Below, one piece after another: positions 14,090 through 46,141 of a stretch of DNA of 53,334 nt (position 1 is the stretch's first letter; the number at the start of each line of letters is the position of its first letter). The translations under genes and the position numbers were made by a program. Below the pieces are notes generated by a model. The model had not been told where the DNA came from and made no database searches. It saw only the letters and a list, made by a program, of their open reading frames with translations. The DNA is from Nemertoderma westbladi. Lineage: Eukaryota > Animalia > Xenacoelomorpha. Where the stretch lies: contig JAUCBJ010001021.1 in the NCBI GenBank assembly GCA_032718475.1, positions 1-53,334 on the forward strand, in the 5' to 3' direction.

Positions 14090-14593
14090 GGGTGAGTACA
14101 AAACAAAAACCAAAGACCCAATTATAAAGACCTGCAAAATCTTGTAACATGTGTTAATTTCGATTATTGTTTGGTTCCCTCAACAAGCCTCTGGAACCTG
14201 CTCCTTTACTAACCTGCTCCTTTAAATGGAAATGGGACCTAACACTCTTTGGGACCTACCGCTCTTTGGGACCTAACGCTCTTTGGGACCTACCGCTCTT
14301 TGGGACCTAACGCTCTTTGGGACCTGACGCTCTTTGGGACCTACCGCTCTTTGGGACCTACCGCTCTTTGGGACCTAACGCTCTTTGGGACCTGACGCTC
14401 TTTGGGACCTACCGCTCTTTGGGAACTAACGCTCTTTGGGAACTAACGCTCTTTGGGAACTAACGCTCTTTGGGAACTAATGCGACTTTACTTCTTTGTT
14501 TTGTACAGAACGGGCAGTAAAGTCTTGGGTCTTTGTTTTGTACAGAACGGGCAGTAAAGTCTTGGGTCTTTGGTGATTATTTTGTACTCACCC
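14090..14593. mobile_element. Small TIR element (Mutator-like MITE) with a 10-bp TSD
   Basis: TIRs GGGTGAGTACAAAA...CCAAAGACCCAA and their inverse. Flanks are GACGATCCTC (14080-14089) and GACGATTCTC (14594-14603). Confidence 0.65.
14234..14480. repeat. 17-bp tandem repeat, about 14 copies, inside the MITE
   Basis: Unit GGGACCTAACGCTCTTT at 14234, 14251, 14268 and onward. Confidence 0.95.
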
Positions 14594-25181: not shown

Positions 25182-25345
25182 TACTAGAAATCCAGCAAGC
25201 TGGCTGGAAGGAGCCCGGGGGAAAAATCCTAGCCAAGACTATTACAAAGAACTATGTCAGTCAGCAGTAAGTAAACTAAACATAAACAATTGTCTAAACT
25301 GCAAGGCGTGAGGCTAGCTGATTTTGTGGCTCGCCCCACATAATA
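25182..25345 (+). mobile_element. Short interspersed Helentron/DINE-like element (inverted copy at 45539-45700)
   Basis: ACTAGAAA.CCAGCAAGCTGGCT start and GTGGCTCGCCCCACA end. Partial copies lie at ~12698 and ~53040. Confidence 0.55.
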
Positions 25346-25384
25346 AAAAATGCAACTTAGCTACCACTAACAAAAATATAATAT

Positions 25385-27605
25385 TTTGAGATCCTTTACG
25401 GTAAGAACTATCCTAAAGCCTACAAATCTACTAATATTAAGCTATAGAATATCTTCTACTGTAAAGTCCAGTAGTATACCGCTTACCGGATCCTAGTAAC
25501 GATGTATCCTACCGTAAGATCTAGTAATGTACACGGGCTCGTACAGTATCTGGTAATAAATCCAAGTCCAGGGTGTCTAAATAAACAGATACAAGTACGC
25601 GAACAACTACTGGCGAGGAGCAGAGCCTAGTGTCTATTCTAGGTTCGTGAGCGAATCTAATGCCTACGAACTAGACAAAAGGATACATGTCCTCTAACCG
25701 GTGAGGCAGATGTACAGTCTATGGTGACAGACCAAACTCACGGGAAAACAATCCCCGCGCAGCAAATCCTAACTATCGCTAACAGACCTAAATACCGTAC
25801 ACTTGCCGCGGTGTGATTTATATGGTTTATATACGAGCTAGTGGATTAACAGACTAGCGTAACAATACTGACCAGTACTCAATCAGTCTAAAGGGGGTCG
25901 TGCCTAATGTAACAATACTGTGAGCAGAAAAAACAGTCTAATAAGTAAATACTCCTTTTGCCGTAACTAAATATCAGATCCTAAATTTACAAACTACGAA
26001 TAGTAAATTACAGATAGATTCTGCCTGAGAGTAATCTAAAATAAGCTATAACTAGTAGAGCTCTAAGGGTACATGTTCTAGGGCGTGTGTGTGTGAGTGT
26101 GTTACAAATAAAACAATTTTGATGTACTCCATTATACTAGGTTTTAGTGATTTTCTGACCGAAACAATACCGTGCGCTAGCTACGAAAATAAGCTAGTCG
26201 CGCTCTGTAGAACTTTATACTTACTAAATGACGTCAAAGCTCTCTCCTTCCTATCCACAACTCAACCGGGCAATTACGGCGTTAGTAACTACACCCGTGA
26301 TCGGCACAAATACCAGATTCTGGTTGTAAGATAAGAAATAGGGGTTAATTGCTACCGTACGTTAGCTGATCTGGTAAACAAATTTGATTCTAGAATTTTG
26401 TTGCCGCGGTGGTTAGCAGCAAAACCTATCAGTACGTGGCAAGGCGCGGTAGGATATTAATAAACCTCCCTAGGCCAAGCGAAGTGCCGGTAGCAGAAAT
26501 ACTCCTTTCCTGATCAAATAACTCGGGTTCAGGCAGGGGGGGGGGGGGGGGGGGGGGTAGTAATGTATAAACTACAAAGCAAACCGGTACCGAACTGTCA
26601 GTATTGCGAATCACTAAATTATGTAACATATGCTGTCTGTACCTAATATGTACTCGCATACTGACCAATGGCAATAGTTCACACCTATAGGGAATACAGG
26701 TTAATCCAGGGATTTGCAGTACAGGTTCTGCTCTGTAGCCTAGCTATTTGATCCTAAATTTTGCGGCGTCCCAGGACGGCGTCACGCTTACCCTGATCTA
26801 TAGGTCTTACGGCGGGCAAGGGCGTCAAACAAAGTCTTACCTTCCTCGGAATCGGGCGCTGCATGGCAAAGGTGGAGTTTTTCGAAGGGGCGAAGGGGGT
26901 GCGTGGGCTAATCTAATGTGGGCGCTAGTGTGTTGTGGACATCTTCCCTGCGTTGCTGACGGCTTAACGGTCTAGGCAGCCATCCTACCAATGCTTGGCT
27001 GTCCCAATGGTGGACAAAGGGAAATATACATGTTCAAAGTTTACAGTATATTTAGAGTAATTTACAAAAGAGTTTATCAACCAAATTTACATAAGTTTCA
27101 ACAAGAAACTAACAAATGTAACTAAAGAATGGTGATAAAGCAAATATTGTTAGAAATAACAATGTATACGATTAGGCATAAGTGAGTGATAACCGAAGGC
27201 AAACCAGCCCTTATATAGCAAATCTGGGACATAGAATCCACTAGAACATTCCAGAGTATTCCATGGCCTCACATTGGAGCAATAAGATATTCTATGCCCT
27301 ATGATTGGCCCAACTCATCGTTCCATACGTTGTACGCACCTCATTGGCTTATCTAATTAGATCAAAGTGAAAATAAATTGCCCAAAAATGCAAATTTCCC
27401 GACCGGGATTCGAACTCGTAACCTAGTTGTAATGTAACCAATGCCTTAACCATCTGACCACTGCGCCAATCGAGTTAACTATGTGTTTATGTGTACCAAT
27501 ATGAATAGGCATATTACATTACTGTAATTTAATCAAAATGCGTCGGATTTTAGAAAGTTTTTGAGTCAAACTACAAATGCTGCCTTATAGTGAAATAATC
27601 CATCA
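25385..27605 (-). repeat. 3' LTR
   Basis: Direct repeat of 42413-44611, with roughly 50 substitutions by eye plus a few indels. Sense strand reads TGATGG...GGATCTCAAA. Confidence 0.95.
27398..27467 (-). other. tRNA-like Pol III cassette in U3 of the 3' LTR
   Basis: GGCGCAG-TGGTCAGATGG(A box)...GAGTTCGAATCC(B box)-CGGTCGGG, with TTTTT about 10 nt downstream. No complete cloverleaf. Confidence 0.65.
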
Positions 27606-28258
27606 CCGCTCCATGGAAACAGTAAGTAAGACTGTTTTCACCAATCGAAATATAAACTATTTACAAAATATCTCTTAGGTCTAATGGTGGGGCCTAAAAT
27701 ATAAAATAATCACTACCTAATTATTGCATACTTATTATTGCAGGTACAGCGTAAATACATTCTATCATACATACAAAATACAAATTTACCAATTAACTTC
27801 AGTGCATAAAATACAAAAAAAAGAGGACTTTCGGTTATCAAGGTAAACAAATTATACAAATTAGAACAAATCAAAACAAATAATTTTAAGGCTTTCAATA
27901 ATCTTTCATATATTACAAATATACATAATAAACTTTCCAAATTAAATCAGTTCAAATATAAACAAACATAATATGCTAATAACTTCCAAATAAGTCTTAA
28001 AGTGTCCTCCTGACGAGCTCAAAAGTTCGTCCTGCTGGTCTGGATATCTTCTCCTGAGCACTGATTGCTAACGGTAGGCTCGCAAGCCTTCCTTCTCTAC
28101 CTCGCTCCTCCAAACCCAACATCCAAACGCAATGTCCAATATAATATCCAAACATAAATATCCAAATATAATATCCAAATATAAATATCCAAATATAATA
28201 TCCAATATGATATACAAATCGGTAGGCTCGCAAGCCTTCCTTCCTTCATCTCGCTCTC

Positions 28259-31200
28259 CTAATCCTTGGTCGAACGGGCTCGTCCACGCCCTCTAATACG
28301 ATTGGGTGGTGGTCGGGATCGAACTGGACTCGGACTTCGGCGTCGAGCTGTCGGTGGTTCTAAAACGCTAGGAAAGGGGACGACGGGAGTTTCACACATC
28401 CGTCGTGCACTCAGTCCTCTAAATCCTCGTCTGATTCCAATCGTTCGCTTCGTAGCATCGGATCGAGTCTCTACAATGCTAGGAGGAAGTCTAAGGGGTG
28501 GGACCGTTCCGTCCGTTGACACCTCGCTCTCTGACGTCGTCTGAATTCTAATAGGTTCTGGTAAAGCATATCCTGTCCCTCCGCGTGGTTCTCTAGGAAG
28601 GGAAACCGTGCCCCGAGTCATCCGGATTTGCGACTTCGATGTCGTCCTCTCGGCGACATTTACTACTTTCTTCATTTCCTGTCCGGCTTTCTGGGCTCTG
28701 AGTATACGAAGTTGCGGATCTTCCTGTGGGTGTCGTGTCCTTTCGGCCAACGGTGTGGCTCTGAAGCCAGTCTCACGCAAAACGTCCGCCTCATCTAGAA
28801 TACACGATGTTACGCGTTTGTGATAAAATGCGCTCCGGTATGCCCAAGCTATCAAATGCCAGGCTCCTCGATTCCGCTTTTCGTCTCGCAATTTGTCGAA
28901 TTCCCCGGCGGTAATCTTATTCACCACAGTCTGAAAGTTCCATGTGTTCTTATTGTCAGGGTGTACCTGTAGAAAGTAGTCCCGAACAACCTTGAATCCG
29001 CTATCCAACGCAATATATCTAGCACCTCCAAGAGTTCATCATATTGAGGCATAGCTGACATGTATCCTTCTTTCGACAATATGGGAGGGTTTACGGCCCA
29101 AAATCCCAAATGCGCTCTCATGGGGAAACGGCGTCGCTGTGTCGACACATGCTCGTCTGCTAGATTCTCCCAATGGTCGAATAGCTGTCTAACGATTTTA
29201 ACTGACATATGCTCATAGGGAACGTCCCTAAGTTGGCACTCTGATGCCCTATGACCTTTAATATTGCAATACGTGCACTGCGCCACGAAACGCCAACAAG
29301 TGTAGAAAGTGTGTGAACGTTGATCCCCACACCAGTTGCACACTAAGTCCGGTAGAGATATATGTTTCGCTCCACATTTCTTTGCGTGGTGGCCAGTTGC
29401 CCCGCATCTGCCACAAATGGTATTGGCAGGATACCAAACTCACTCATAGTTGAGGTCTCTGATGGGGCGAGCGCTACCGTCCACGTGATAATTCTCATCA
29501 TCCGGGTCAGTCGGTATGTTCATCTCCGTAGGTTGTACACAAACCATGGCATCGCTTTTCTCTAACTCACGTATCTCAGTTCGCGTCTTCCTCGGAAGAT
29601 TCTCTTCTATCTCTATGAGTTGCCGCAACGGTTCGTCTATTATCGCGAACTCGGTCAGATCCACATCGTCATGATGGGCGGTAGGCTCGCGAGCCTTCCA
29701 GGATCCTACTGGGCCTTTGAATTCCGCGTGGCGTTCCCCGTCGTGGGGTACTAACATCAACATCGACGGTCTGTCGACTAAGCTTCCCGCGTGAGTGAGA
29801 TAAACGTTCCTGAAAACGCTAAGTCCCGCTCGCGTGAAAACTTCGCAGTGCGCATTGGTGTTATAAAAGGGTTGGAGAAATCGGCAGAATACATCAGTAT
29901 GCGTCCTTCCTCCATCGTAAATGGTATGTCCTTCACCGAGACATAACGGATGTCGCTTTAGGATTCTAGACACTACATCGGCGATGAAGCAAACGTTCAC
30001 CGAAGATTCTATCGCCAAATAGTATTGCAAGATTATTCGTGGAGGTGAGGTAATCGCCCAGTACACGCAACCTCTCCACTTCAACTGTGACTCGAACTCG
30101 TTTACGCCGGGGGTATCTCCCTCACCGTATACGTCTGTGTATTTGCTCCTCTTACTCTCTTTATATTCCCAACTAAACATTAGGTATGAGATATAACCCA
30201 TTCCAGTTTTTAGCGTGTTATACTCCCTAAAATATCCTTGTTCAATAGCCCAAAGCAACAATGGTCTAGTATCCACGTATGGCGTAGGCAATCGATCCTC
30301 CTCCTCGGGCATTCCCACGAAATCGCTAATGAGGTCATCTCGTACACCGGATCCGATCTTGACGATACTCTTATCAAGTACAACGTCTCGCACGGCCTTT
30401 GGCAACATCCCAGCTTCTATGCTACAAGCCAGGTCCATGGATTTAACTATCCGTTTTATCATCGCGTGTCTTTGCATCGTTCCTTCTGGCATAGGCATCT
30501 ATCTATCGCTCCTCTGTTGGCTGAAGACATGTAACACGCCATCGGGTGCTCGAATTTGTTTGGTCTTTGAAGTGAGGCTTTGCTGATGGCTTCCTCCTTC
30601 ATTATCGTAAAACATATAACCATTCTCCTGCAGAGATCGGCTGGTTGCATCCCAATCGTCGAGTAAATCGTAGGTAGGGTTCCAAATTCTCCCTATGGAC
30701 TTTTCATCGTCGAAACTAATAGGTTTTCCGGTCCAATTGGTCGCAATATCGGTGTCGGTTTCAAACGTGCCAACTCCGATCCATAATCGAATCGTTTTCG
30801 CTAAATATCCTCGCAAGTTACAAGGTGCGATATCCGTCCCCGCGCGATCCACTTCCTTAAAGTCCGTAATATGTGGAGGCATGTTGCGTACGATTTTCTG
30901 AACTATCGTTCTACGCAACTCCGCTGCCTCTAACACATCACCAAAGGTAACTGATGGGAGGAAATCCAGGTTCGAAATGATCTTCGGGTGTTCAACTATA
31001 GGAATCTCGTTAGTTGTCTCCTCTCGGGTTGGTATGCTAATAGGAAAGCTGGTTGGTCTCGCGACTGGTACTACCGCTTTAGTAGGATATCTGTAGTCTC
31101 TGCGACAAACGCTGAGCAAAGGTGATACTATCGAAGAGTTTGGGTATCATCTCCTTAGGTTCGGTTTGATCGTGGGATATCCAGTAAAATGGTAGGCTCG

Positions 31201-31384
31201 CGAGCCTTCCGCCGAACTCCTCGATCTCGCCTTTCTCGTACGCCTTGTACGCCCTGTAGAGGCTCAAAGCTTCCCGTTTCTCTTGTGTCGACTTATTAGA
31301 CTCGTCCACTATCATACTATAGAGGTCTGGTTCGACTAATTTGGGTTCGTAAATAACAATTTCGCCCACGTTTGGTCCACTCAT
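28259..31384 (-). pseudogene. Accessory ORF3: DEDDy (WRN/EXD/Mut-7-like) 3'-5' exonuclease, three CCHC knuckles and an RS/RG-rich tail (disrupted)
   Basis: ExoI YMFYDNEG, then KQIRAPDGVLHVF; ExoII LPKAVRDVVLDKSIVKIGSGVRDD; YVDT; ExoIII-like W..PPRIILQYYLAIES. Knuckles at 29415-29236. In-frame stops at 30499-30501 and 29440-29442, frameshifts near 31100 and 29010. Confidence 0.75.
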
Positions 31385-31396
31385 TTTAAACGAATG

Positions 31397-31983
31397 TTAC
31401 GGATTCATCAAAGGGTAGCCGCCTTCTTGGTAACGCAGACTTTGGTGGTATGAACATCGTGCTAATATCAGCTTGGGGTTCTCCGAGTTCAAGCGCATAG
31501 GAATCGCGTTGTCTTGCTCGCGCATACATGCTCCACATTTGTAAAACAGTTTATAAATGGAGAACGCGTCCTTTGTCTCTGGATCCGCTCCTCAAGCGCG
31601 TCTATAAAGATGCATTCCATCGAATTCATCCCTGGCTGCAGGCAAGGATTCGCTCGCCGTCAAATATTGCAGCGTTGATATAATCGGCGTATCTCCGTGT
31701 CTGGATCCTCGCAAATGTCACTGGCGTCGCATAACGCATCATAGGGGTTTAACGCATTGAATTCCGCGCGTAACTCCTCCGCTCTTTTGTTATAAGCGTC
31801 CAATCGCTGTCTCATAACATTCGGGTCCGCCTTGGATTTAGTGAGCTTGGCTGTACTCCTAGCCATACTTTCCACTCCAAACACGTTAAAGTTTTTGGCT
31901 CCATAATGATTAAACGGTGCCTGGTGCTCTTGTTCCTGTGTAAACCCCTGATGTAACTCCTTATAAATCTTCTCCGCCATCAT
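31397..31983 (-). pseudogene. Second accessory ORF (~190 aa reconstructed), function unknown
   Basis: The 107-aa ORF at 31983-31660 continues, after a stop and a frameshift, as ...YKLFYKCGACMREQ...ARCSYHQ...NP*, ending 13 nt before the ORF3 ATG. Confidence 0.45.
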
Positions 31984-32701
31984 ATACGCATATATATGGT
32001 TACATATCGTTACGTTTCTACTAGATGAAGCCCAAAATAGAGGTTAGATGTGAGGAGACTTAGAGTTTGTCGGCTTTTGGCTCAACTTTGCTCTAAAACC
32101 CCTACCCATTTGCCTAATGACTTCGGGTTTCACTGGCTCCTAATCCAAAAAATGTGCCGATAAAAAACGAATTCCGGGTAAACTAACCGTGAGTCTAAAA
32201 TACTCACCTTTTAATTTCCTAAACTACTTCCCAAAGAAAATAGTGCAGTCAAGAATTAATTTGGTCTAAATAATAGGAGACACGACTACGTAGAACAAGG
32301 CCGATTTTCTTTTCCAAAAAAATTTATCGGAAGGCTCGGAAGCCTACCGCTCTTGTCCTCCCCAATTTTAATTTTTATCTAGCTGTATTCTAGAATTCGC
32401 ATTCACTGGAGAATCATTTTTCTTAAATTTAAATCCAACCAAATGGATTTGTCTAATAATTTTTGAAAAATTGTCTCACTTGTGTGTTCCAAGTGGAATT
32501 CCATTCATACTGTACACACAATCCCGCTCCTATGTGATACATAAGGGTACTACCCTCCATGTTCACATATAAAGACAATGGAATTCCACCGCTGTCTCTA
32601 TCTACAGTGAAGAGGAATACAAATGCACATACAGTAATACAAAATACTAAATTACTAAAATATGGTAAGTCTATGTGGCGGCCATCAAGGGTCCCACATC
32701 T

Positions 32702-34200
32702 CTATTTACTAAGATTGGGTGGAGATTTGTAGTCTCCTGTCTCGTTTCTAGACTCCTCAAGGAGCACGAGACGTTGTACAGGCCTATCTACGGTACGTCC
32801 GTCAATAGTCCGCACAGTAACTGTCCTTACTACACCAGATGTAGGGTGCGTGGTCAAAATGACTCCAGTCAGCCAAAACCGTCTCTTCAGATTGGTTTCA
32901 GCCAATAAAACATGGTCACCTCGTCTCAAACATCGGGTATTAAGATACCAAGAGGTTCTGGTAGAAATAGAGGGCAAATAGTGCTTCTGCCATATTTCCC
33001 AGAATTTGTTGGCTAGCAACTGAGTGATTTTCCAAGCTTTGTTGCCGTATCCATAGCTATCGACAGGTACCAAAGTGGGCAACAATGTCGTCGGCGCCTG
33101 CATAAGCAGGTGTGCTGGTGTCAAGGCAAACTGTGAGTCATTATTGTCTGGGATCAAAGCGATCGGTCTAGTATTCAATACCGCTTCGATTTCTATTAAC
33201 AACGTCGTCAGTTGGTCGTCTGTTAATATGTGTTGCGTCGGTATTACTTTCGCCATAGCCATTTTTATTGACCCAATCAGCCTTTCCCAAACGCCGCCTC
33301 TCCATGGACTGTTGGAAGTGTTAAAGCTCCAAACAATACGGTGAGGACGTAGGTTTTGGTCCAACTTCTTTAAAGCTCTGGTAATTTCATTCCGTGCACC
33401 CACAAAGTTAGTCCCTTGGTCGCAATAAATGGATTTCACCAATCCACGTCTAGCGATAAATCGATGTAAGGCTAGGATAAAGGCGTTGGTGGTCAAGTCT
33501 GTCACACGCTCAATATGGACAGCTCTGATGGCCATGCAAGTGAAGATCAATCCCCAACGTTTTACCTGTACCCTTCCGCATTTCGCGATTATGGGTCCAA
33601 AACAGTCTATCCCTGACTCAGTGAAAGGGGGTCTAAAAGCCTGTAATCTTGCTAATGGTAGTTCACTCATTTCTTGGTGTCCTATCCTCGCGTGCACCTT
33701 CTTACAAATTATACAGTTCCGTGTTACCGAACTCAGTGCCTTGCTAGGCCTAATCAGTACGAACCTCGAGCATAAGTGTGATAAACAGTGATGTCTACCT
33801 ACGTGTTTGAGTCATACATGTGCATCCAGTATCATAGCGCGCAGTAACTCGTGGTGTTGCGGTATGATGAAGTCAAGTGCAAAGTCAATGTTTTGGAGTC
33901 TGGACTTGTGACAAAGTAAGCCCCTATAGATAATCGGACTCTAACTCAAAATCGGTGAAGACTTGATCTGTTTACCCTGATTGATCGCTGTGAACTCTCG
34001 TGCAAAATATCGCAATTGATAATGACGAATAATATCAACTTCACAAAGACCAACTTCCTCTAAGGTAAGTCTCCTAGGAAAGTCGCATTTGCCTCTGGCA
34101 TATAGTCTCAAACGTTTGAGCCATGCTAACTTGCGGCACGCGTCAGTCCATGATCTAGTTAGGTTTACTATCCTGTCAACGTAAGTGTTAGTGACGTCAT
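32702..34200 (-). pseudogene. Bel/Pao integrase
   Basis: HHCC region (H..KH...CIIC, containing a stop), GIDCFGP, IYCDQGTNF and GGVWERLIGS (DDE), and the C-terminal FWEIWQKHYL...GVVRTVTVRT...RPVQRL. Confidence 0.93.
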
Positions 34201-35099
34201 CAGGTAAGGTATAGTCAAAATGTGGATACTTGTTCGGACTTGGTAGGCCCACGGGCCTTCCGGTAGGTGTCTCCCTTTGTGCAATAGGTTTGTCTAAGTC
34301 CCCAAGTGATTCAATCTCCACAGTCTTACCTTTACCATCCACACCCAGTGAATTGACTGGCAGTAACGGTTTCAACTCTACAGTACAAGTGTGTTCCTGT
34401 GAGCTTGTAAGCTTCCTAACCTTAGTCACACGTTTACCTGTAGACGGTAAGTCAAGTATTTTCCTTGAGCGGAGTGTGATCGCTGTGGCCACACCTTCGT
34501 CCAAAGAAGTCAAATTTGGTAAGTTGTCAATCGCTAATGGGTGTGTACTAGTCCGCTCCAATGGATTCATTGCGTCCTTAGAGTACACGTCGTTACCTTC
34601 CAATTGTTTGTCTAATGGAAAGTCTAGTAGACAGTCTGATGAGGCATCCGGTGAACAGTCTGGTGAGATGTCTGGTGAGACATAGAACGGAACTTCCGGC
34701 TAATTGTCCTGTCGTCGGTCCCAAAGAAAGTCTGGTGTAGCTTCTGTCAGAAAGTCTGGTCTAATGTCTAGTGGACAGTCTGTCGAGATGTTTGGTGGAA
34801 AGTCTGGTGAGATGTCTGGTAGACAATATGTCGAGTGTTCTATAAAACAATCTGGCGAATATTCTGGAGAACAATCTGGTGTCGCTTCTGGTGAATAATC
34901 TGGCGAGTCATCTGGTGAACAATCCAGCGAAACGTCTGGTGAAATCTCCCGCAGAACATCCGGTGAAAGATTCGTACGAACGTCTGGTCGAGAGTCTGGT
35001 GAGACATCTGGCGTAATGTCAGGTCTAACGTCCAGGTCATCAGATTTCGTCCGTCCTTGTTTCCTCTTGACCTTGGCGTTGGCTTTCGCTTTAGATTTG

Positions 35100-35603
35100 A
35101 CAACTGTGTCGATTTTTATCTCGGCACCCTCCGTTATGGTATTAGTTGTCGCGTCGAAAAACGGTGGCCATTCGTCTGATGGTCGTTGTAGGAAATCGGG
35201 TCCTCTAAACCAAAAGGATTTATTGTCCGGTTTACAAAAGTCAATCGGTAGCATCCCCCGTGACGCGATGTCAGCTGGGTTCAGCTTCCCTGGACAGTGA
35301 CGCCAATCTTGTTTGACCGACCGGTCTAATATTTCAGCCCATCTGTTGGCTACGAAAGTCTTGAACTTGAATGTTTCGTTGTTTATGTACCAAAGTACCA
35401 ACGTCGCATCTGTCCAATATGTGACCTTCAAGTTAGCCTCCAGCTCGCGTTGAACTAGACTGACAATATCGGAGGATATCGTCCTGGTTTGCAGCTCTCC
35501 ACGAGGTACAGTCATATACTTCAACGGCATTGTTCTAGCCCTTGAAGTAACGAGAGACACTTCGTAGCTGTCCGATGTTAGCGTCACTGAAGCTGTGAAG
35601 CTC
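35100..35603 (-). pseudogene. Bel/Pao RNase H region
   Basis: LHSFSDA (35600-35580), then a frameshift and apparent short deletion, then VPRGEL, WTDATLVL, FVANR and WRHCPGKLNPADIASRG. Confidence 0.88.
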
Positions 35604-36827
35604 TCAATTGGCAGGAAAGGTGGTCTGCAAAGGAAAGTATACCCTTGGTATGGTATAGTCTTGTAAGAACGTCAGTTGGGCTTCCCAGTCCCTCCATTGC
35701 TCAGCTAACTTTTCTGGAATGGGATCGTCCCATTCCAGTCCGGCTTGCCAAATGCTGCGGAGTATGATCCTGGCATGTAGGATCACTGTACTAATGAAAC
35801 ACAATGGGTCATACAATCGACTCATGGTCGATAAGCAAGTCCTCTTAGTGAGAGGTCTAGTCTGTCCGTTGGACCTTACACATACCCTAAAGTTGTCGGT
35901 GTTCGGGTCCCAACTAAGTCCTAATACCTTGGTCGTAGGTAGAGGTTCTAGGTCTAAGTCAAAATCACCTCCACTGCGATCCGTCGGGTCGAATGAGTTC
36001 ACTAATTCGGGTTTGTTGGAAACAAACTTCGTGAGGCGGAATCCATCCTCAGCGAGACAATCTTGGAGTTGGTGTGCTACGGTCATAGCGCGCTCCAGAG
36101 TGTCACAACTCTTGAGGCCGTCATCCACGTAGAAGTCTCGTTCCACTGTCCGAACTACTTCTGCGTCAAATTGGTCTTGTCTGTCCAATGCAGTCTGCTT
36201 TAAGGCATACATGGTGCAGTTGGGGCTGTCCCTGGCTCCTAAAACTCTTACCTGCATTTGGTAAGTTTCTGGCGGAAGTTCTAAATTTCCATCCGGATAC
36301 CAAAGAAACCTCAAACTGTCCCTGTCCCGCTCCAAAGCCTTAACCTGGTGAAACATGGCCTCTACGTCACATGTGAAAGCCACTTTGCATTGTCTAAAAT
36401 GCATTAGGACTCCCATGAGGTAATTATTCATATTCGGCCCATCCATCAGTTCGCTGTTCATAGACATCCCTTGGTAAAGCGCAGCGCAGTCGTTGACTAC
36501 ACGCACCTTGCCAGGTTTGTCCGGGTGTCGAACAAAATGATGTGGCAGGTAATATGTCTGATCTGTGGTTACCTCGGGATTTAACATCCTAATGGCGTAT
36601 CCCTTTTGGAGATACGTCTGAAGTTGCGCATAGTATTGCATATGGGCCGTGTCATCACGCAACAATCGCTGCCTTATTGATTTGAGTAGCCTCAAAGCAA
36701 GCGGGTAGTTGTTAACGAGCTTAGGTTGTCCATTGCCCCAAAACATGCCTACTTTGTAGTGGCCATTCACAGTCTGGCGAATGGTATCTCTCATAATATT
36801 TAATGACCATTTTTCCTGTTCTGACAT
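35604..36827 (-). CDS. Bel/Pao reverse transcriptase domain (open segment of a disrupted pol)
   Basis: YYLPHH, KVRVVNDCAA, DVEAMFHQV, LRFLW, FYVDD, KVLGLSWD and YDPL. Confidence 0.95.
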   Translation of the reverse strand: MSEQEKWSLNIMRDTIRQTVNGHYKVGMFWGNGQPKLVNNYPLALRLLKSIRQRLLRDDTAHMQYYAQLQTYLQKGYAIRMLNPEVTTDQTYYLPHHFVRHPDKPGKVRVVNDCAALYQGMSMNSELMDGPNMNNYLMGVLMHFRQCKVAFTCDVEAMFHQVKALERDRDSLRFLWYPDGNLELPPETYQMQVRVLGARDSPNCTMYALKQTALDRQDQFDAEVVRTVERDFYVDDGLKSCDTLERAMTVAHQLQDCLAEDGFRLTKFVSNKPELVNSFDPTDRSGGDFDLDLEPLPTTKVLGLSWDPNTDNFRVCVRSNGQTRPLTKRTCLSTMSRLYDPLCFISTVILHARIILRSIWQAGLEWDDPIPEKLAEQWRDWEAQLTFLQDYTIPRVYFPLQTTFPAN

Positions 36828-37213
36828 AGCGGTCTCGTAACTACCGGGTTTGCTGAGTCCTGTTCTAACAATTTAATGGTCCGTTCAGTCAGCAGTCGGT
36901 CAAGCGCTGCTTGCACTGCGCCATGGTCCTCATCCACGTCTTCGTCCACTGCGGTGGCTAGTATCAATGTGTCTGGTAGGCTCGCAAGCCTTCCGGTGTC
37001 ACTAGTCCGCATCGAAAAGTTGTGAGGCGGTTTGACAACCTTCTGATCTGTCGGTAGGCTCGCAAGCCTTCCAAGATCAATGACCGGTGTCGAAGCCTGG
37101 TGGGTGGGGTCAATGACCTTCGGATTTTTCGGTAGGCTAGCAAGCCTTCCAAAACCCTCGTTCATCGAGTCATCCACAGCAACAACCCTTTGGTCTTCAG
37201 TAGTCAATACAAC

Positions 37214-37930
37214 CTAGTTTACTGCAAGTAGTTGTAAGTCAGAGGTCCATGTGGTTGTGTCCAGATCAGTTACGTCAGTATCGGTTACGTCAGCATTAGC
37301 GACGCAAGTCTGTCGTAGTGCAGTCTGTACAATTGGACCACAGGAGTGTGTAGGAGAATTATCTATCGTGGTAGTCAATAAACTACACGTACTCAAAACG
37401 TCGTCCTCCTGGTCACTTACCTCTAGTGAACGCACTGGTGCTCTAGTATACCAACCTATGGGAGTTCTACATGCGTATGGGTTGCCCGCTGTAATAACAG
37501 ATGGGTGTGTCTCCCATACCTGATGTAAGTTAAACTGGTCTGTCCCAATCAACATCGCGATTGAACGATAGTTAACAGGACATTCCGGTATTCCAAGATG
37601 TCGGAAATACTTACGATCTTCCGGTGATTGCTCTGGCACAGGGCTGAGCAACTTACTAAAGTCCTTCGTAGCTGCAAAGGTCAAATTTCTTACCGGAAGT
37701 AATGAGCGCTCCTCCTTGTTGTGTTCCGCTTTGGAAAGAAGAGTGTCTAAGGTTAATTTTACTCTCGTCACTGGGATCGCTCTCTTACCATGCATGCTGC
37801 TTACAGTATACTGAGCAGTCTTACCTTTACTCATGTCCGTAACTATGTCTGCTACTTGTTCGTCGACGTACTATGCGATGACGCAGAGTCTAAGATAGCG
37901 TATATACACTTGCTCCCTCGGGTTCCGGTA
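37214..37930 (-). pseudogene. Bel/Pao aspartic protease (frameshifted)
   Basis: YAILDSASSHS with the catalytic D at 37888-37890, then MLIGTD and PYACRTPIGW. Confidence 0.8.
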
Positions 37931-37935
37931 ATCTT

Positions 37936-40900
37936 TCAAGGAATCACGCTAAACCCTTTCAATTGGTTCTTTGTGAGGAGTGTTATCGATGGTTGTTCCT
38001 CCCCCACATGCACATAAAAGGTGTCGTCTTCCTCCTCGTCCTCATCCGATGATCTTGATTGATCCATACAATCTGTATAGAACGTGCGAATCTCGCGTGG
38101 CGCATGCTCTTTATAAAGTGCGTCGCATCTAGCCGCCTTATCTGGATGCTCTCGTCGAAAGCGTTTGGTCGGAGTATGACTATTTGTGTGAAGTAACGCG
38201 TCGTGGTTACGTCCACATAGAGGACATATATCGTCGCTCGGGCAATCCTTCCGGACGTGTCCAGGCTTGGTACATCTCCAACAAGAATCCAAAGATCGAA
38301 TTTGAAGTCTCCTTTCTTCAACTCCCAACTCTTTAAAAGCGCGACATCCACGTAGTTTATGTCTTCTGTGGTTTCTGCCGTTCCTTTCGCAATATGAGCA
38401 TCCCACAAATTCTGCCGGCAACTGTTTTCGTGGCTGCTTGGTGCCGATAGGCGTCAGAACTTTAGAAGTTTCTGTTGGGGTGGCATAAGTCACAGCCTTC
38501 GCGTTCGTCGGAAATGGTTTGGTCCGAGTCGGCACAGCAATAGCTATTCCTTCTGCTGCTATATGGTGGTCAGTGTAGTTTGATTGAGTCTCAACTACGG
38601 CCTCCCGCGAAATCAGTTGGTAGACGTCGGTAAGTTTTAATAGCCCACCGGCCTCTTCATGCTGATACTCATTACGTCGCCATTCTCGTCGTAATCGATG
38701 ATGGAGTCGACCGATTATCCTAATGAGAACTGTCGGTGCATTGGCATACTCGAGTTGTCCAATGGACCGTAAAGTCCCTATAGTGTTCTTTATTTCATCC
38801 GCGAGTCGTAGAAGATCGATCGGTTTCGAAATGCTTCCTCCTCTACAGAGGTCTTCGATAATAGATTTAGCCATAGCTACGTTGCCACCGTAAATCGAAT
38901 ACAAGCGGTCGTACACCAACTCAAAGGCATCTGGAACACCAATAAAGGTCTCCGCTAATCGTTTCGGCTACCAGACAGAACCTGGAGCAAGTAGTTAAAC
39001 TTCTCCGTCGAGGTGAAGGCACACTTTTCGATCTGGGACTCTACATAGTCTACCAGCGTATGCCAGTGCTTTGCGTTGCCAGAGAACTTCGGCGGTAATC
39101 CATGTCTAGCCGCAATCTTCGCAATCTCGCTAACTAAATCCAACTGTCCGCGTCCCTGTTCAGTTGCATCGTCCAGTCGTTCCCTTCTGCGCGTCGTCCG
39201 TCGGTAAGAAATATTAACGGGATCTTCTTCTCGATGGTTCGGAGTCTGTCTAGTCTCCTGTTCTCTCCTTGGTGGTTGATGTTGTCTAGGTTGTTCCAAC
39301 TCCACGCTGGTTCGCGATCGATCCGACGGTTGCGCTTCGAGTCACTCTTCGAGTTGAGCTAGTCGGTCCGTTACAGGTAGCATTATTTCGGTGAGTCTGT
39401 TGGTGCAGATCGCTTCCGCTGGTTGCAATGTGGGTTTCTGCAAAGGTGTTGCTCATGGAGGATTGCCGATGTATTGGTTGGTCGATCTCTCCTCCCGTTT
39501 GTAATCAGCTGCCACTGCCACTCCAGTACGGAATATTTCCCATTCCGTCGACTCCGAGTCACTGGATGAGTCGCTGTCATCCGGATAAGGTGGTTGGCGG
39601 GTTCGCGTACAGCGTATTATTCTTCGTCGTGTTCGTTGTGGTCTGGGATCTATGGCTCTCCGTCGTTCGGTAGGCTCGCAAGCCTTCCACGAAGTCGTAG
39701 GTCTCATTAAACTTGGTTCGATCCTGTGGGTACTACCCACATCCGTTGTCCTTCATTGTTTGGTAGGCTCACAAGCCTTCCACGAAGTCATAGGTCTCGT
39801 CGAACATTGTGTCAACGGTCGAATAAAATAGTCGGGTTTCGTAGTCGGTCTGTAAATGACTGGGTTCGCGCAGCACATCACAGGTTTAACTGCTAACGGC
39901 TTACTTACCTGCTTAATTGTCATAAATACAGATTCCTCTCTCCCTACAAGTAGACTACGACTTACTGTAGGTGGACGATTTACTTTACCTTTTAGGATTG
40001 GCGATGAAGTTGCCCTAGGTTGCGGTATTTCCGTCACAACAAACCTGTTACCTTGCGTTGAGCGCACAGGTGATATTTCTTTAGGTTTCGTAACAAAAAC
40101 CGGTTTTATTGGAGTTGTAGGTTTGAGCATAGGAATCACTTGTGGAAAACGTTTACAGTAATCCTCGACGAACTCCTCTCCTCCATCTATCGCTCCCACA
40201 CTTCCTTCCTCGATTTGCTTCTGAATCCCGCGATATCGTGTCTCCATGCGATCCAGGGCAGACAAGTCATGTCCAGCTCGAGATCTTATATATCTACCTC
40301 TCGCGTCGAGTTCGAGGTCCTCTTGCGCATTCGCTGCCTCGCGCGATCTGCGATTTAGTTCGAACTGGAGTTGCATCTCCCTTTCGTGTTGATCTGCTAC
40401 CTGTTGTTGTGCCGCTAACTCCGCTTCCTGTATAGCTAAACGAGCGTTTATTTGTCTCGCTTCCAACTTGGCATGAGCGTCGGATGCTGCTTTCTTCCAT
40501 GCTAACTCGTCAGCTGCCGCCTGTCGTGCTAACTCATCGGCTGCTGCCGCTGCGGCCGCTTCTCGCGCTAAGTCCTCCTCTAATCTCCACATCTCAGATG
40601 CTTCGAACTCAGCTTGAGCTTGGAGTTTCGCAAGTTTTGCTACATCCTCTCTGCCCTGTCTTTCTCCTTCGATGGTGATCTGTGCCATCTGCCATTGCGC
40701 TTCTTCCTCGGCGACTTGTTGTCGGCGTGCGACCTCCTGTTGTTGTCGAGTAATTACAGACGATGTCCTACTAATGTTGCCAACGTCGCTCCGTACACTA
40801 ACGAACGATCTATCCAGTGGTGGAATTTGGTAGGCTCACGAGCCTTCCATCGTTAGAACTTCCGTCGTCCCTTGCAGTTCGACTTCCGGTTCTTCGATCG

Positions 40901-41573
40901 GTACGCCGTTTCTACGAAGAAAATTGGTGAGCGTCTCCAACCTCCCGTCCAGGCGATAGAGTTCTTCTTCCTCTTCGGGTTGCAACAACACGTCCAAAAC
41001 TGACTCACCTAGCAGTTGGTCGAACTGCTCCTGTTGAGCCAATCTTATTACTGACTTAAACTGGATGAGGCTTTCCCTCGCACTTACCAACTTATCTATT
41101 ATCTTTACCTGAGTAAAGTTGTCGCCACGCAACTCTGCAAGTTCGTGTAAACCTTTAAGTTTATCTACGGAAAAATGTACCCTACTTTCTATCCTTACCT
41201 GTAAGGTGTAGAACTCGTATCTCGACATCAGGGCAGTTAGCTCGCGTAAAACGCGAAAACCTTCTCCGAAGTTTCGAGTTATCTGGGCCATGTGTCCTCC
41301 TATACTCCTAATAACATTTTCTTGGCTTCCCGCCAAGCTTACCATGTCTGGTTCCCGCGACCTGGTCTGCGGGACGGTAAGGAAATCTTCGATTCTGCCG
41401 TCGCCACGATTTGCCACTTCCGGTGTTTCCGTTCGGGGCACCGGCGACGCACGCGGTGTGACATCGGTGGAATCTCGGGTTCTCCTTCTCGGTTCGTCTA
41501 CTGTCGATCTGTCCGGGTCGCACGAGTCATAGTCGGTAGGTGGGTATCGAGTCGAATGTGGTGTGTCACTCAT
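37936..41573 (-). pseudogene. Bel/Pao gag (long, disrupted)
   Basis: Coiled-coil N-terminal half, DUF1759-like LPPKFSGNAKHW...EKFNYL, and the triple Cys/His array CSYC..H..C, CWRCTKPGHVRKDC, CPLCGRNHDALLH. In-frame TGA stops at 40836 and 39753, plus frameshifts. Confidence 0.9.
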
Positions 41574-44224
41574 GTCTTATTATATACGTCAAGTACGGGT
41601 AATAAAATGTCAAAGTATCAGAATGTCGAAATGTCAAAATGTCAAAATGTCAAACTTACCTTGGTATATATATATACTATATATATATACCCTAACCGGT
41701 ACAAATAAAATCAAAGTATATAATAAAATATGTAATAATCTAGCCCACCGGCTAAATTTGTACGAATAAGTGAGATAACGGTATACGTTACCAAAATGTA
41801 GATCAACAAGTACAACTAATAGGCAAAACAGCAACGTCTAACGGGAAATAAGTACCAACAACACTACTAATTAGACAGTGAAACCCACAAATTTTGAGTA
41901 CTACTATGCTCTTAAGTTTGAATGACACGAGTCGTAAAACTTACGCTCCTTTGATCTTCCAGTCGTGCAAATTCCCAAATACAAACCGGACGTGGGTCGT
42001 TCGACGTCGCGGACGAATTTTGTGTCTCCCAAACTTTGCGAAAAGCGGTCTAATCCCTCGAAGCGTTCCAGAAATGAGTCCTTGAGTCCTGAAAAGTCGA
42101 AGGTGAGAGTTTTACTTCTACTCTATGAAAAATCTTCCTAGGTACCGATACAACCTGGTCTTTAAACCCTATGTAACTTTTCAAGTACCGAAAGTAACAC
42201 CGCACACACACGGTGTAAAACAAATTGCTATAAACTAACTATTAGCTAGTCAAATATTAAATACGAAACTACTAGCTACCCTAAAAGCCTACTGAAGCAA
42301 CGTACAAAATGTTGCCTTACAGAAGGAACGAATACTATTTTATATATTCTCCGGCAGGGTCTACCTTACTTTTTAACTAATCTAGAATATTTAATAATAA
42401 AATATTCCATACTTTGAGATCCTTTACAGTAAGAACTATCCTAAAGCCTACAAATCTACTAATATTAAGCTATAGAATATCTCCTACTGTAAAGTCCAGT
42501 AGTATACCACTTACCGGATCCTAGTAACGATGTATCTTACCGTAAGATCTAGTAATGTACACGGGCTCGTACAGTATCTGGTAATAAATCCAAGTCCAGG
42601 GTGTCTAAATAAACAGCTACAAGTACGCGAACAACTACTGGCGAGGAGCAGAGCCTAGTGTCTATTCTAGGTTCGTGAGCGAGTCTAATGCCTACGAACT
42701 AGACAAAAGGATACCTGTCCTCTAACCGGTGAGGCAGATGTACAGTCTATGGTGACAGACCAAACTCAGGGGAAAACAATCCCCGCGCAGCAAATCCTAA
42801 CTATCGCTAACAGACCTAAATACCGTAAACTTGCCACGGTGTGATTTATATGGTTTATATACGAGCTAGTGGATTAACAGACTAGCGTAACAATACTGAC
42901 CAGTACTCAATCAGTCTAAAGGGGGTCGTGTCTAATGTAACAATACTGTGAGCAGAAAAAACAGTCTAATAAGTAAATACCCCTTTTGCCGTAACTAAAT
43001 ATCAGATCCTAAATTTACAAACTACGAATAGTAAATTACAGATAGATTCTGCCTGAGAGTAATCTAAAATAAGCTATAACTAGTAGAGCTCTAAGGGTAC
43101 ATATGTTCTACATGTACATATGTATGGGTACATATGTACATATGCGTACATGTGTTATAAATAAAACAATTTTGATGTACTCCATTGTACTAGGTTTTAG
43201 TGATTTTCTGACCGAAACAATACCGTGCGCTAGCTACGAAAATAAGCTAGTCGCGCTCTGTAGAACTTTATACTTACAAAATGACGTCAAACCTCTCTCC
43301 TTCCTATCCACAACTCAACCGGGCAATTACGGTGTTAGTAACTACACCCGTGATCGGCACAAATACCAGATTCTTGTTGTAAGATAAGAAATAGGGGTTA
43401 ATTGCTACCGTACATTAGCTGATCTGGTATACAAATTTGATTCTAGAATTTTGTTGCCGCGGTGGTTCGCAGCAATACCTATCAGTACGTGGCAAGGCGC
43501 GGTAGGATATTAATAAACTTCCCTAGGCCAAGCGAAGTGCCGGTAGCAGAAATACTCCTTGCCTGATCAAATAACTCGGGTTCAGGCAGGGGGGGGGGGG
43601 GTAGTAATGTATAAACTACAAAGCAAACCGGTACCGAACTGTCAGTATTGCGAATCACTAAATTATGGAACATATGCTGTCTGTACCTAATATGTACTCG
43701 CATATTGACGAATGGCAATAGTTCACACCTATAGGGAATACAGGTTAATCCAGGGATTTGCAGTACAGGTTCTGCTCTGTAGCCTAGCTATTTGATCCTA
43801 AATTTTGCGGCGTCCCAGGATGGCGTCACGCTTACCCTGATCTATAGGTTTTACGGCGGGCAAGGGCGTCAAACAAAGTCTTACCTTCCTCGGAATCGGG
43901 CGCTGCATGGCAAAGGTGGAGTATTTCGAAGGGGCGAAGGGGGTGTGTGGGCTAATCTAATGTGGGCGCTAGCGTGTTGTGGACATCTTCCCTGCGTTGC
44001 TGACGGCCTAACGGTCTAGGCAGCCATCCTCCCAATGCTTGGCTGTCCCAATGGTGGACAAAGGGAAATATACATGTTCAGAGTTTACAGTATATTTACA
44101 GTAATTTACAAAAGAGTTTATCAACCAAATTTACATAAGTTTCAACAAGAAACTAACAAATGTAACTAAAGAATGGTGATAAAGCAAAGATTGTTAGAAA
44201 TAACAATGTATACGATTAGGTATA

Positions 44225-44380
44225 AGTGAGTGATAACCGAAGGCAAACCAGCCCTTATATAGCAAATCTGGGACATAGAATCCACTAGAACATTCCAGAG
44301 TATTCCATGGCCTCACAGATGTTCTATGCCCTATGATTGGCCCAACTCATCGTTCCATACGTTGTACACACCTCATTGGC
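44225..44380 (-). promoter_or_regulatory. LTR Pol II promoter: CCAAT boxes, TATA and Inr
   Basis: TATATAA at 44261-44255, TCACTC Inr with its A at 44231 (30 nt downstream), and CCAAT at ~44340 and ~44379. Same layout at 27217/27187 in the other LTR. Confidence 0.7.
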
Positions 44381-44403
44381 TTATGTAATTAGAATGCAAA
44401 TTT

Positions 44404-44473
44404 CCCAACCGGGATTCGAACTCATAACCTAGTTGTAATGTAACCAACACCTTATCCATCTGACCACTGCGCC
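44404..44473 (-). other. tRNA-like Pol III cassette in U3 of the 5' LTR
   Basis: Same A/B boxes as 27398-27467. The downstream T5 run is absent because of a ~26-bp indel. Confidence 0.6.
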
Positions 44474-44754
44474 AATGGAGTTACCTATGTGTTTATGTGT
44501 ACCAATATGAATAGGCATATTACATTACTGTAATTTAATCAAAATGCGTCGGATTTTAGAAAGTTTTTACGTCAAACTGCAAATGCTACCTTATAGTGAA
44601 ATAATCCATCAAATATGAAGCAAATAATTTCATTATCAAGCACGTTTACAAGATATAAGATACGATTACCGAATATTTATAAAAAATGCCCATGATGCAC
44701 AACCAGATAAATAACAACGAATAGAGCCAAATAATAAATTTAGTTTCCTATATT

Positions 44755-45025
44755 TAGGAGCCCGCTCGACAGGCGGGATACTTACTGTAAAAATCTGCGG
44801 GATACTTACTGTAACAATCTCAGGATATATATCACTGACTGACTGACTGACTGGTAATTATTCAGGTTCGGCACTTCTTGCCTGGCGATTTTGTTGAAAT
44901 TTTACAAGTAAATTGGTTTGGTAGTTCATAATCGCATTACAAAATATCAGATCGATTCTATGTGTGGTATTCGTTATATTTCATTTTTTGAAATTATTTT
45001 GTCGCGAAATTAAAAGCAATGGTTT
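44755..45025 (-). mobile_element. Helentron/DINE-like element fragment, inverted relative to 45993-46141
   Basis: 44870-45022 is the reverse complement of 45993-46141 and adjoins a short (CTGA)4 at ~44835-44852. Confidence 0.55.
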
Positions 45026-45538
45026 TAAAGTAACAACTCCTGCCTGAGCTGCTGCAGCAGCTAGCTGTGTAGGAATGGTGGAGTGCAGGGCTGCCTGATA
45101 TAGAATTCCATCCAGACCATCAAGGCAGAATTTCTTGATTTCTTGACCCTCCTGCTGCTGGCTGAGTCTACACATCCTTTATCAGCTCTCAGGGATAGAC
45201 AGAAAATAGTTGCGTTGTCAATAAACAAAATAAATTATACCACTGCAGTAGGATTATATTATTATTCCACGAATCAATGGGCTGATTGTTTTGTATAGGA
45301 TATATGTAGAATGTTCTTAAAAATAATATTCTTATTTTTTTTTCCTTAGGATTAGCATCATTTTTTAGCTGAAGCATTAATAGTGTAAATTAATTTAATT
45401 ATATTTTAATACCATTACTACATTGGCATACTGTAAGATAATTTTAACATTTCTTACAAATAGTGGTGCGAGCATAAAAATCAAATCACGCGAATTTAAA
45501 AGAACCGAGTGTGTTGTCATAGCAAAGTTTCATTTTTT

Positions 45539-45700
45539 ATTATGTGGGACGAGCCACAAAGTCAGCTAGCCTCACGCCTTACAGTTTAGACAATTGTTTA
45601 TGTTTAGTTTACTTACTGCTGACTGAAATAGTTCTTTGTAATAGTCTTGGCTATGATTCTTCCCCGGGTTCCTTCCAGCCAGCTTGCTGGCTTTCTAGTT
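45539..45700 (-). mobile_element. Second copy of the 25182-25345 element
   Basis: Reverse-complement match by eye. Confidence 0.6.
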
Positions 45701-46141
45701 ATATTAGGTATTACCCCGTCGACAAGCGGAATATCACTTTCCATTGAATCCTATGTGAATATGTAATATAGGTTACTCCTGCTAAGGTAGGCCAGAGCGG
45801 GCTCCTTAAATACATGCAACTACTGTATTATACTGTAAGTCAACTATAAAACATTTTGCAATCCACAGTGAGTAACAACGTCGATAGGACACAACACACT
45901 GCTTTGTGTAACTAAAATTCAACCAACACGTTTTACTATGACTGTGTATAACATATTAAGCATTATTTCATCATGAACACCAGCTGTTATTTTACCATTG
46001 CTTTTAATTTCGCGACAAAATAATGTCAAAAAACTAAATATCTCGAATACCACACATAGATTCGATCTAAAATTTTGTAACGCGATTATGAACCACCAAA
46101 GCAATGTACATGCAAAATTTCATTAAAATTGCCAGGCAGTA

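What the first reader, a model, noticed from the sequence alone, without database searches (positions are those of the whole stretch)
28073..40848. Twelve copies of a 20-nt hairpin written into all three reading frames of the element, with covariation
Seen: GG-A-AGGCT-[loop]-AGCCT-A-CC (sense strand) occurs at 28073, 28221, 29680, 31191, 32329 (reversed), 34242, 36975, 37053, 37131, 39669, 39762 and 40829. I saw none in the LTRs or the flanks. It is read as GRLASLP, as WKA(C/R)EPT and as EGS(R)AY in coding regions, and it also occurs in non-coding DNA, so the constraint is on nucleotides rather than protein. The arms are invariant while the loop varies (UGCG x5, CGCG x2, CGUG x2, UGUG, UGCU). 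The 34242 copy changes the top pair U-A to C-G on both sides. Inference: a dispersed cis signal, either an RNA stem-loop with an A.A mismatch (packaging, dimerisation, export or self-recognition) or a palindromic DNA site for a dimeric protein.
Basis: partly seen in the sequence, partly recalled or inferred. Interest (0 to 1): 0.88.

Follow-up and report, generated by a model that had tools for sequence, protein, structure and literature searches.

The report
Retrotransposon evenly studded with self-pairing hairpins
A large BEL/Pao jumping element carries twelve near-identical copies of one 20-letter self-complementary sequence, spread evenly through its genes and absent from its ends; they are likely an RNA signal by which the element would recognise, pair up or package its own genome, which is untested.

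Summary
Real. All 12 copies are at the stated places (shuffles: mean 0.62, maximum 3), inside a decayed BEL/Pao LTR retrotransposon with an orphan zinc-knuckle ORF3. None lies in its LTRs or flanks. They form 8 independent sites, avoid conserved domains and are spaced more evenly than chance (P about 0.002-0.03). In the 78-nt triplet, arm columns are invariant 16 of 16 against 7 of 58 flank columns.

The covariation claim shrinks. Family contigs from three studies carry the ordinary form at 32329, so the 'reversed' copy is private to this window and all sites face one way. One loop variant is private too. A single paired change (34242) remains, and its family status is unknown.

Ten of 11 standard loops are YGYG, self-complementary through G.U pairs on the sense RNA, so two copies are predicted to form a near-full duplex, like the Ty1 dimer hairpin. 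The motif is absent from 78 other BEL loci and 237 related proteins.

Best reading: a selected, family-specific RNA signal for dimer linkage or packaging along the whole genome. A DNA binding site is not excluded. No host genome was held, so confinement genome-wide is untested.

The parts
42399..44611 (-). 5' LTR (approximate ends; begins TG); no motif copy
   Evidence: 94% match to 25373-27605; 60 mismatches in 2186 aligned columns
25373..27605 (-). 3' LTR (approximate ends); no motif copy
37939..41576 (-). gag region, broken by stops and frameshifts: long low-complexity N-terminal part, DUF1759, zinc knuckle
   Evidence: DUF1759 E 0.0019, below cut-off; zf-CCHC E 0.00083
32705..37870 (-). 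pol region, broken: putative protease part, RT, Peptidase_A17/RNase H region, long low-complexity insert, integrase with DUF5641
   Evidence: Peptidase_A17 E 2.9e-18; DUF5641 E 4e-19; BEL/Pao polyproteins, at most 46% and 39% identity
28924..31396 (-). ORF3 region, broken: orphan protein ending in three CCHC-like arrays; exonuclease-like look by eye not confirmed
   Evidence: zf-CCHC E 0.00014; no homologue; exonuclease test negative
40829..40848 (-). motif, site 1, in gag; a loop position is private to this copy
39762..39781 (-). motif, site 2a, in gag (loop UGUG)
39669..39688 (-). motif, site 2b, in gag (loop UGCG), 93 nt from 2a
37131..37150 (-). motif, site 3a, linker before RT (loop UGCU)
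37053..37072 (-). motif, site 3b (loop UGCG), 78 nt from 3a
36975..36994 (-). motif, site 3c (loop UGCG), 78 nt from 3b
34242..34261 (-). motif, site 4, insert before integrase; top pair C-G instead of U-A (loop CGUG)
32329..32348 (-). motif, site 5, spacer after pol; looks reversed only in this copy, ordinary form in the family
31191..31210 (-). motif, site 6, start of ORF3 region (loop CGCG)
29680..29699 (-). motif, site 7, ORF3 before the knuckles (loop CGCG)
28221..28240 (-). motif, site 8a, 3' untranslated part (loop UGCG)
28073..28092 (-). motif, site 8b, 3' untranslated part (loop UGCG), 148 nt from 8a

Best explanation
The element carries a conserved, one-way-facing 20-22-nt self-complementary motif at eight evenly spaced sites, which likely acts as an RNA signal: each copy is predicted to fold into a small hairpin that an element-encoded zinc-knuckle protein (Gag or ORF3) would bind and could convert into a duplex with another copy, so that the unusually long genomic RNA would be dimerised, compacted and packaged through many contacts instead of one 5' signal. 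Shown: copies, positions, orientation, arm invariance, even spacing, family specificity among the elements tested. Predicted: hairpin (-7.6 kcal/mol) and two-copy duplex (about -31 to -35 kcal/mol for YGCG loops). Inferred, untested: that it acts as RNA, the binding protein, and the dimer/packaging role.
For: Arms 16 of 16 invariant versus 7 of 58 flank columns in the 78-nt triplet, third codon positions 4 of 4 versus 3 of 20. Both arms always occur together at a 4-nt spacing; no lone 8-nt half-site lies inside the element. 8 of 8 sites co-oriented with the sense strand once the private change at 32329 is set aside. Spacing is more even than random: P 0.008 (CV) and 0.006 (minimum gap) under a uniform null; 0.004, 0.002 and 0.027 (CV, minimum gap, maximum gap) when conserved domains are excluded. 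11 of 12 copies lie where none of 171 related polyproteins aligns, the twelfth where about 5 do. In 10 of 11 standard copies the loop is YGYG, which pairs with itself through G.U on the sense RNA but gives C.A mismatches on the other strand; duplex energies favour sense in 8 of 11 and tie in 3. The one arm change keeps the pair (34242). Precedent: the Ty1 SL1 hairpin converts to an intermolecular duplex with Gag (PMC6844567, passages); dispersed packaging signals whose spacing matters are known in RNA viruses (PMC6281560, passages). The internal region is 14.8 kb, against a median of 7.0 kb for the whole contigs holding other BEL loci.
Against: No RNA data: no listed run is on record as RNA. 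Hairpins fold about equally on both strands (inner stem probability at least 0.8 in 10 of 12 sense and 9 of 12 antisense), and folding z-scores are modest (-0.26 to -3.66). Co-orientation and shared loop variants also follow if copies spread by template switching, so they are not independent events. At least one C-to-U-looking loop variant is private decay. Near-invariant sequence with almost no covariation fits a sequence-read site as well as a structure, and the flanking Y and R bases do not covary as a pair (no C-G among family forms). Known dimer signals are single and at the 5' end. Four or five copies would also lie in any ORF3 subgenomic RNA, which argues against selection of the full-length genome (inference). 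Twelve near-identical palindromes would risk mis-register and deletions (inference).
Confidence: 0.45

Rival explanations
1. A double-stranded DNA site: a pseudo-palindromic 22-bp box (YGGWAGGCT half-sites) bound by a dimeric protein, perhaps ORF3 or a host factor, spread along the provirus to keep it transcribed or unsilenced, as VANC proteins do for VANDAL transposons.
For: Near-invariant sequence with little covariation. Y/R flanks are symmetric but do not pair consistently. An orphan accessory ORF goes with the motif: 0 of 78 other BEL loci have the motif or a tblastn match to ORF3. VANC21 binds a short family-specific DNA motif (PMC5735166, passages). Sirevirus palindromic repeated motifs are a retrotransposon precedent (PMC2829016, passages). 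CpG observed/expected is 1.06 inside against 0.66 in the flanks, though coding content alone may explain that.
Against: No copy in either 2.2-kb LTR, where the promoter lies (chance absence is not unlikely, about 0.3 by my arithmetic). VANC and Sirevirus motifs cluster in non-coding regions and LTRs, whereas 9 of 12 copies here are in coding sequence. The spacer is constrained and all sites face one way. ORF3 has CCHC knuckles, which usually bind single-stranded nucleic acid (own knowledge).
Confidence: 0.22
2. An RNA hairpin read as a monomer by ORF3 or a host protein for RNA handling other than packaging: nuclear export, transport, or protection from silencing or decay every 1-3 kb along a long intronless transcript (Rev/RRE-like logic, dispersed).
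For: Even spacing over both gag-pol and ORF3 parts. 7 of 11 standard loops fit YNMG, a structured tetraloop class that includes a protein-bound viral loop (PMC2346598, passages). A conserved A.A mismatch would suit protein recognition (inference). Extra ORF3s, including DEDDy-like ones, are known in LTR elements (PMC5408684, passages).
Against: The closing pair is U-A in 11 of 12 copies, not the C-G of the most stable YNMG loop. ORF3 has no homologue and the exonuclease-like look was not confirmed. A monomer model does not need a self-complementary loop.
Confidence: 0.22
3. No function: a short quasi-palindrome copied about by reverse-transcriptase template switching or gene conversion, tolerated only in linkers and kept uniform by recent copying.
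For: Copies lie only where protein constraint is low. Clusters at 78, 93 and 148 nt show local duplication. The site at 32329 took several clustered changes in this copy, so the motif may be mutagenic.
Against: Flanks of independent sites are at background identity (2.3 and 2.9 of 10) while exactly the same 20 nt are shared. Spacing is over-dispersed rather than clumped. No degenerate or half copies lie in the element, as neutral turnover would leave. No such family in 78 other BEL loci.
Confidence: 0.11

Closest known systems
Ty1 SL1 (PAL1-PAL2) and Ty3 PAL6 dimerisation sites; retroviral dimer-linkage palindromes and GACG tetraloops
   Same: [quoted passage not shown]
   Different: Those are one or a few unlike sites near the 5' end. 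Here one sequence recurs 12 times over 12.8 kb, in coding frames and the 3' part, with none in the leader. Dimerisation is not shown here.
Multiple dispersed packaging signals of RNA viruses (MS2, picornaviruses, hepatitis B virus pregenome)
   Same: Many stem-loops along the genome, in coding sequence, where spacing matters (PMC6281560, passages).
   Different: Those vary in sequence around a minimal recognition motif; these are near-identical 20-mers, only eight sites, self-complementary, and in a retrotransposon.
VANC target motifs of Arabidopsis VANDAL transposons
   Same: Family-specific repeated cis motif together with an element-encoded accessory protein (PMC5735166, passages).
   Different: VANC motifs are 8-9-bp DNA words in tandem arrays in non-coding regions of a DNA transposon. 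This motif is a 20-nt quasi-palindrome mostly inside coding sequence, and no binding is shown.
Sirevirus palindromic repeated motifs (RM)
   Same: High-copy palindromic boxes specific to one LTR-retrotransposon group, with extra copies tied to an extra ORF (PMC2829016, passages).
   Different: RMs cluster in the LTRs and upstream of the envelope-like gene; these copies are absent from the LTRs and evenly dispersed through gag, pol and ORF3.
BEL/Pao LTR retrotransposons with an extra ORF3 (host element)
   Same: DUF1759, knuckle, RT, Peptidase_A17, integrase and DUF5641 in BEL order between two LTRs.
   Different: About twice the usual length, at most 46% RT identity to anything found, an orphan ORF3, and the motif, which 78 of 78 other loci lack.

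Membership tests
BEL/Pao LTR retrotransposon (host element) | Two direct LTRs flanking gag-pol | tested here: met
   2.2-kb direct repeats, 94% identical; no clear target-site duplication or primer site was pinned down
BEL/Pao LTR retrotransposon (host element) | Pao-type domains in the order gag, RT, RNase H region, integrase | tested here: met
   DUF1759 (weak), zf-CCHC, RVT_1 (weak), Peptidase_A17, Integrase_H2C2 (weak), DUF5641; the 120 best RT hits are nearly all Peptidase_A17-bearing proteins
Ty1/retroviral dimer-linkage palindrome | Self-complementary sequence able to form an intermolecular duplex | tested here: met
   Predicted 2+14+2-bp duplex with two A.A mismatches for 10 of 12 copies; computation only
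Ty1/retroviral dimer-linkage palindrome | Located near the 5' end of the genomic RNA, one or few sites | tested here: not met
   First copy is about 1.55 kb past the 5' LTR, inside gag; 8 sites over 12.8 kb
Ty1/retroviral dimer-linkage palindrome | Needed for RNA dimer formation and mobility | not testable with these tools
   Needs biochemistry
Multiple dispersed packaging signals | Many stem-loops spread along the genome with a shared motif | tested here: met
Multiple dispersed packaging signals | Bound by the capsid protein and promoting assembly | not testable with these tools
   No binding data
VANC/VANDAL anti-silencing motif | Motif in tandem arrays in non-coding regions | tested here: not met
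   9 of 12 copies in coding sequence, none in the LTRs
VANC/VANDAL anti-silencing motif | Element-encoded protein binds the DNA motif and removes silencing | not testable with these tools
   ORF3 has no homologue
YNMG tetraloop hairpin | Loop Y-N-M-G | tested here: inconclusive
   7 of 11 standard loops fit; CGUG x2, UGUG and UGCU do not, one of these being private to the copy; definition from PMC2346598
Known Rfam family | Match to an Rfam model | tested here: not met
   4 matches at E up to 5 in 25000-45000, all in an AT-rich LTR palindrome, none at a motif copy
DEDDy exonuclease ORF3 (bdelloid Juno/Vesta type) | Detectable DEDDy domain in ORF3 | tested here: inconclusive
   No Pfam hit; a profile from 17 bacterial PolA exonuclease domains scored -1.4 bits, reached by 29 of 500 shuffles; both folds had pLDDT 36 or less

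The most novel reading that the evidence does not exclude
A giant retrotransposon has replaced the single 5' dimer/packaging signal with a genome-long zipper: one self-complementary hairpin written into every tolerant linker, in any reading frame, that pairs copy-to-copy to hold two long genomes in register or to condense one, with an orphan knuckle protein (ORF3) as its dedicated reader.
Probability: 0.22. Interest if true: 0.88.

Novelty: new variant of a known kind. Interest (0 to 1): 0.66.

Why it matters
How LTR retrotransposons other than yeast Ty1/Ty3 recognise, dimerise and package their own RNA is largely unknown, and my searches found no cis signal described for BEL/Pao elements. This family offers a sharply defined 20-nt candidate and two candidate readers, testable with short oligonucleotides. 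If it holds, it shows a retroelement solving the long-genome problem with evenly spaced identical signals written into protein-coding sequence. If the DNA rival holds, it would be an animal retrotransposon counterpart of VANC-type self-recognition.

Tried and rejected
No host genome is held, so the genome-wide count could not be made. No RNA holder listed. Laying contigs on 32270-32410 gave only 3 substitution rows at 2% or more, too few to compare arms with neighbours; run X5 laid nothing there. The whole-element lay showed only 40 of 2123 difference rows, so the family state of the 34242 pair is unknown. Pattern scans: 6 single matches in viral contigs, none with a second copy nearby, four of them sharing the same flanks; 0 doublets in metagenomes; 2 single matches in prokaryote genomes, about the chance number. 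A REP-like bacterial origin is therefore rejected. No BEL relative in viral contigs. ORF3: no homologue, no convincing solved-structure match, two unusable folds, atlas look-up unavailable, exonuclease test negative, so 'exonuclease' is not claimed. No complex prediction was run, as there was no usable model or protein pair. Dispersed 11-mers in L025, L052 and L065 trace to duplicated contig parts. A recombinase-site reading (loxP-like arms and spacer) was dropped: 4-nt spacer, 8-nt arms and no recombinase domain found (own knowledge). An A.A-to-U.U covariation at 32329 was considered and refuted.

Full report
Observation. The degenerate pattern has 12 exact matches in the window and one 3-mismatch match outside the element; 100 shuffles give a mean of 0.62 and at most 3, even with three mismatches allowed. 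The copies lie between two 2.2-kb direct repeats (25373-27605 and 42399-44611) that differ at 60 of 2186 aligned columns. None lies in those repeats.

The element. On the minus strand the interval holds DUF1759, a zinc knuckle, RT, Peptidase_A17, an integrase zinc finger and DUF5641, in pieces broken by stops and frameshifts. This is a decayed BEL/Pao LTR retrotransposon. Its best relatives are 43-46% identical in RT and at most 39% in integrase; named ones come from molluscs, cnidarians, echinoderms and fish, so the host is likely an animal (inference). After pol lies an ORF3 region with three CCHC-like arrays and no homologue in two very large searches. By eye it recalls a DEDDy exonuclease (recalled), as in bdelloid ORF3s (PMC5408684, passages), but Pfam, a home-made profile and two folds did not confirm this. 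The family is present in many variant copies in one organism (16,024 and 8,281 contigs laid from two studies) and, in 39 contigs, in a second organism.

Anatomy of the motif. The sense form is GG-A-AGGCU-YGYG-AGCCU-A-CC, with a purine after it in 12 of 12 copies and a pyrimidine before it in 10 of 12. The 12 copies make 8 independent sites. In the triplet spaced at exactly 78 nt, 16 of 16 arm columns are invariant against 7 of 58 flank columns, and 4 of 4 third-codon positions in the arms against 3 of 20 outside. The motif was picked for being invariant, so the Fisher P of 4e-11 overstates the case; the contrast still needs selection or repeated copying. Flanks of independent sites are at background identity. 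No 8-nt half-site stands alone in the element. Eleven copies lie where none of 171 related polyproteins aligns and one where about 5 do, although such alignments cover 49% of the gag-pol span. The eight sites are more evenly spaced than random placement: P 0.008 and 0.006 under a uniform null, and 0.004, 0.002 and 0.027 with conserved domains excluded. These statistics were chosen after seeing the data.

What family data changed. At the 'reversed' copy, contigs differ from the window at 32331 in 25,727 of 25,727, 17,669 of 17,696 and 64 of 64 depth units (runs X1, X3, X4), and at 32339 in all laid depth. Their loose ends read the ordinary motif in the orientation of the other eleven. The reversed look comes from a cluster of private changes, or an assembly error, in this copy. 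All 8 sites therefore face one way (chance 0.008 by my arithmetic, though copying by template switching would also keep orientation). A loop position of the 40829 copy differs from the window in 98-100% of laid depth. What remains of 'covariation' is the U-A to C-G change at 34242, one event, whose family status the cut tables do not show. The 141-nt lay had only 3 substitution rows, so arms could not be compared with neighbours.

Specificity. Of 78 other BEL loci from metagenomes (34-43% RT identity, 574 kb, 62 of them 6 kb or longer), none has the motif at fewer than 3 mismatches, and 9 have one or two 3-mismatch hits. A de novo scan that recovers the motif in the window found one weak 3-copy palindrome, in a contig with a duplicated part. 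The three-frame peptide signatures occur in 0 of 237 related proteins. Collection scans gave only single hits and no doublet. Within the host, only the 38.5 kb of LTR and flank in this window could be checked.

How it likely works. Each copy is predicted to fold as a 2+5-bp hairpin with an A.A mismatch, on either strand about equally. The loop adds a strand hint: UGCG, CGCG, CGUG and UGUG all pair with themselves through G.U on the sense RNA, so two copies give a 2+14+2-bp duplex (-22.6 to -34.9 kcal/mol), against weaker or equal values for the other strand. That is the hairpin-to-duplex switch described for Ty1 SL1, driven by Gag (PMC6844567, passages), and it resembles Ty3 and retroviral dimer sites (PMC11381356, PMC516450, passages). 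Even spacing recalls dispersed packaging signals (PMC6281560, passages). I therefore favour an RNA signal used many times along a very long genome for dimer linkage, compaction and packaging (0.45). A monomeric RNA mark for export or protection (0.22), a DNA site of VANC or Sirevirus type (0.22; PMC5735166, PMC2829016, passages) and neutral copying (0.11) remain. The loop hint is weak, because variants may share descent and some are decay. Nothing here shows transcription, folding or binding.

Novelty. Six of my nine literature searches (listings and abstract starts only) looked for a repeated hairpin dispersed through an LTR retrotransposon or a BEL/Pao cis signal and showed none; subscription journals are largely outside the library. 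I also saw part 1 of 4 of PMC6338049 and passages of PMC2346598. No supplements were read; those of the comparison papers are unlikely to bear on the claim, and those of preprints were closed. Rfam has no match at the copies. The scan's notes hold nothing on this DNA and one unchecked note on a tandem hairpin array in the leader of another retroelement. The parts resemble known signals; the layout appears undescribed. Verdict: new variant of a known kind, interest 0.66.

Noticed in passing
window 44400-44490 and 27394-27484 (minus strand, inside both LTRs): A tRNA-like stretch with A-box and B-box look (motif names recalled) near the 5' end of each LTR; ARAGORN calls no tRNA. Possibly a SINE-derived or Pol III promoter piece built into the LTR.
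   Followed up: partly
window 28389-31419 and 31480-31708: Contigs in runs X3 and X4 skip 3029 nt (most of ORF3, with two motif sites) and 227 nt, at similar depths: likely a deleted subfamily lacking ORF3.
   Followed up: no
window 32329-32348: Two substitutions and a short deletion cluster within about 20 nt in this copy only, making the motif look inverted, where about 1.4% divergence is expected. Hairpin-templated mutation or assembly error; unexplained.
   Followed up: partly
L065:7113-7287: Another BEL locus has three local copies, 66-68 nt apart, of a 41-nt unit with an 8-bp inverted repeat; clustered, not dispersed. A possible simpler analogue.
   Followed up: no
window 34600-35040: A 24-nt tandem repeat (at least 8 copies) encoding an S/P/D-rich insert between the RNase H region and integrase.
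   Followed up: no
window 25183-25363 and 45520-45699: A 181-bp inverted match (94%) on the two sides of the element; probably two copies of another repeat. No clean target-site duplication was found for the element.
   Followed up: no
window 7775-9154 (minus): A single 459-codon frame matching Iml2/TTC39 (E 8e-129), intronless over this span: host gene or retrocopy.
   Followed up: no
window 41663-41691: A 29-nt AT-rich palindrome in the leader, next to short tandem TTTGACA-type repeats.
   Followed up: no
window 1160-1565, 1712-3265, 5439-6634, 14182-14521, 46081-48847: Several minisatellite arrays in the flanks (41, 21, 30 and 17 nt) and a stop-free stretch of about 2.7 kb in all three plus-strand frames, probably also repeat-derived.
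   Followed up: no
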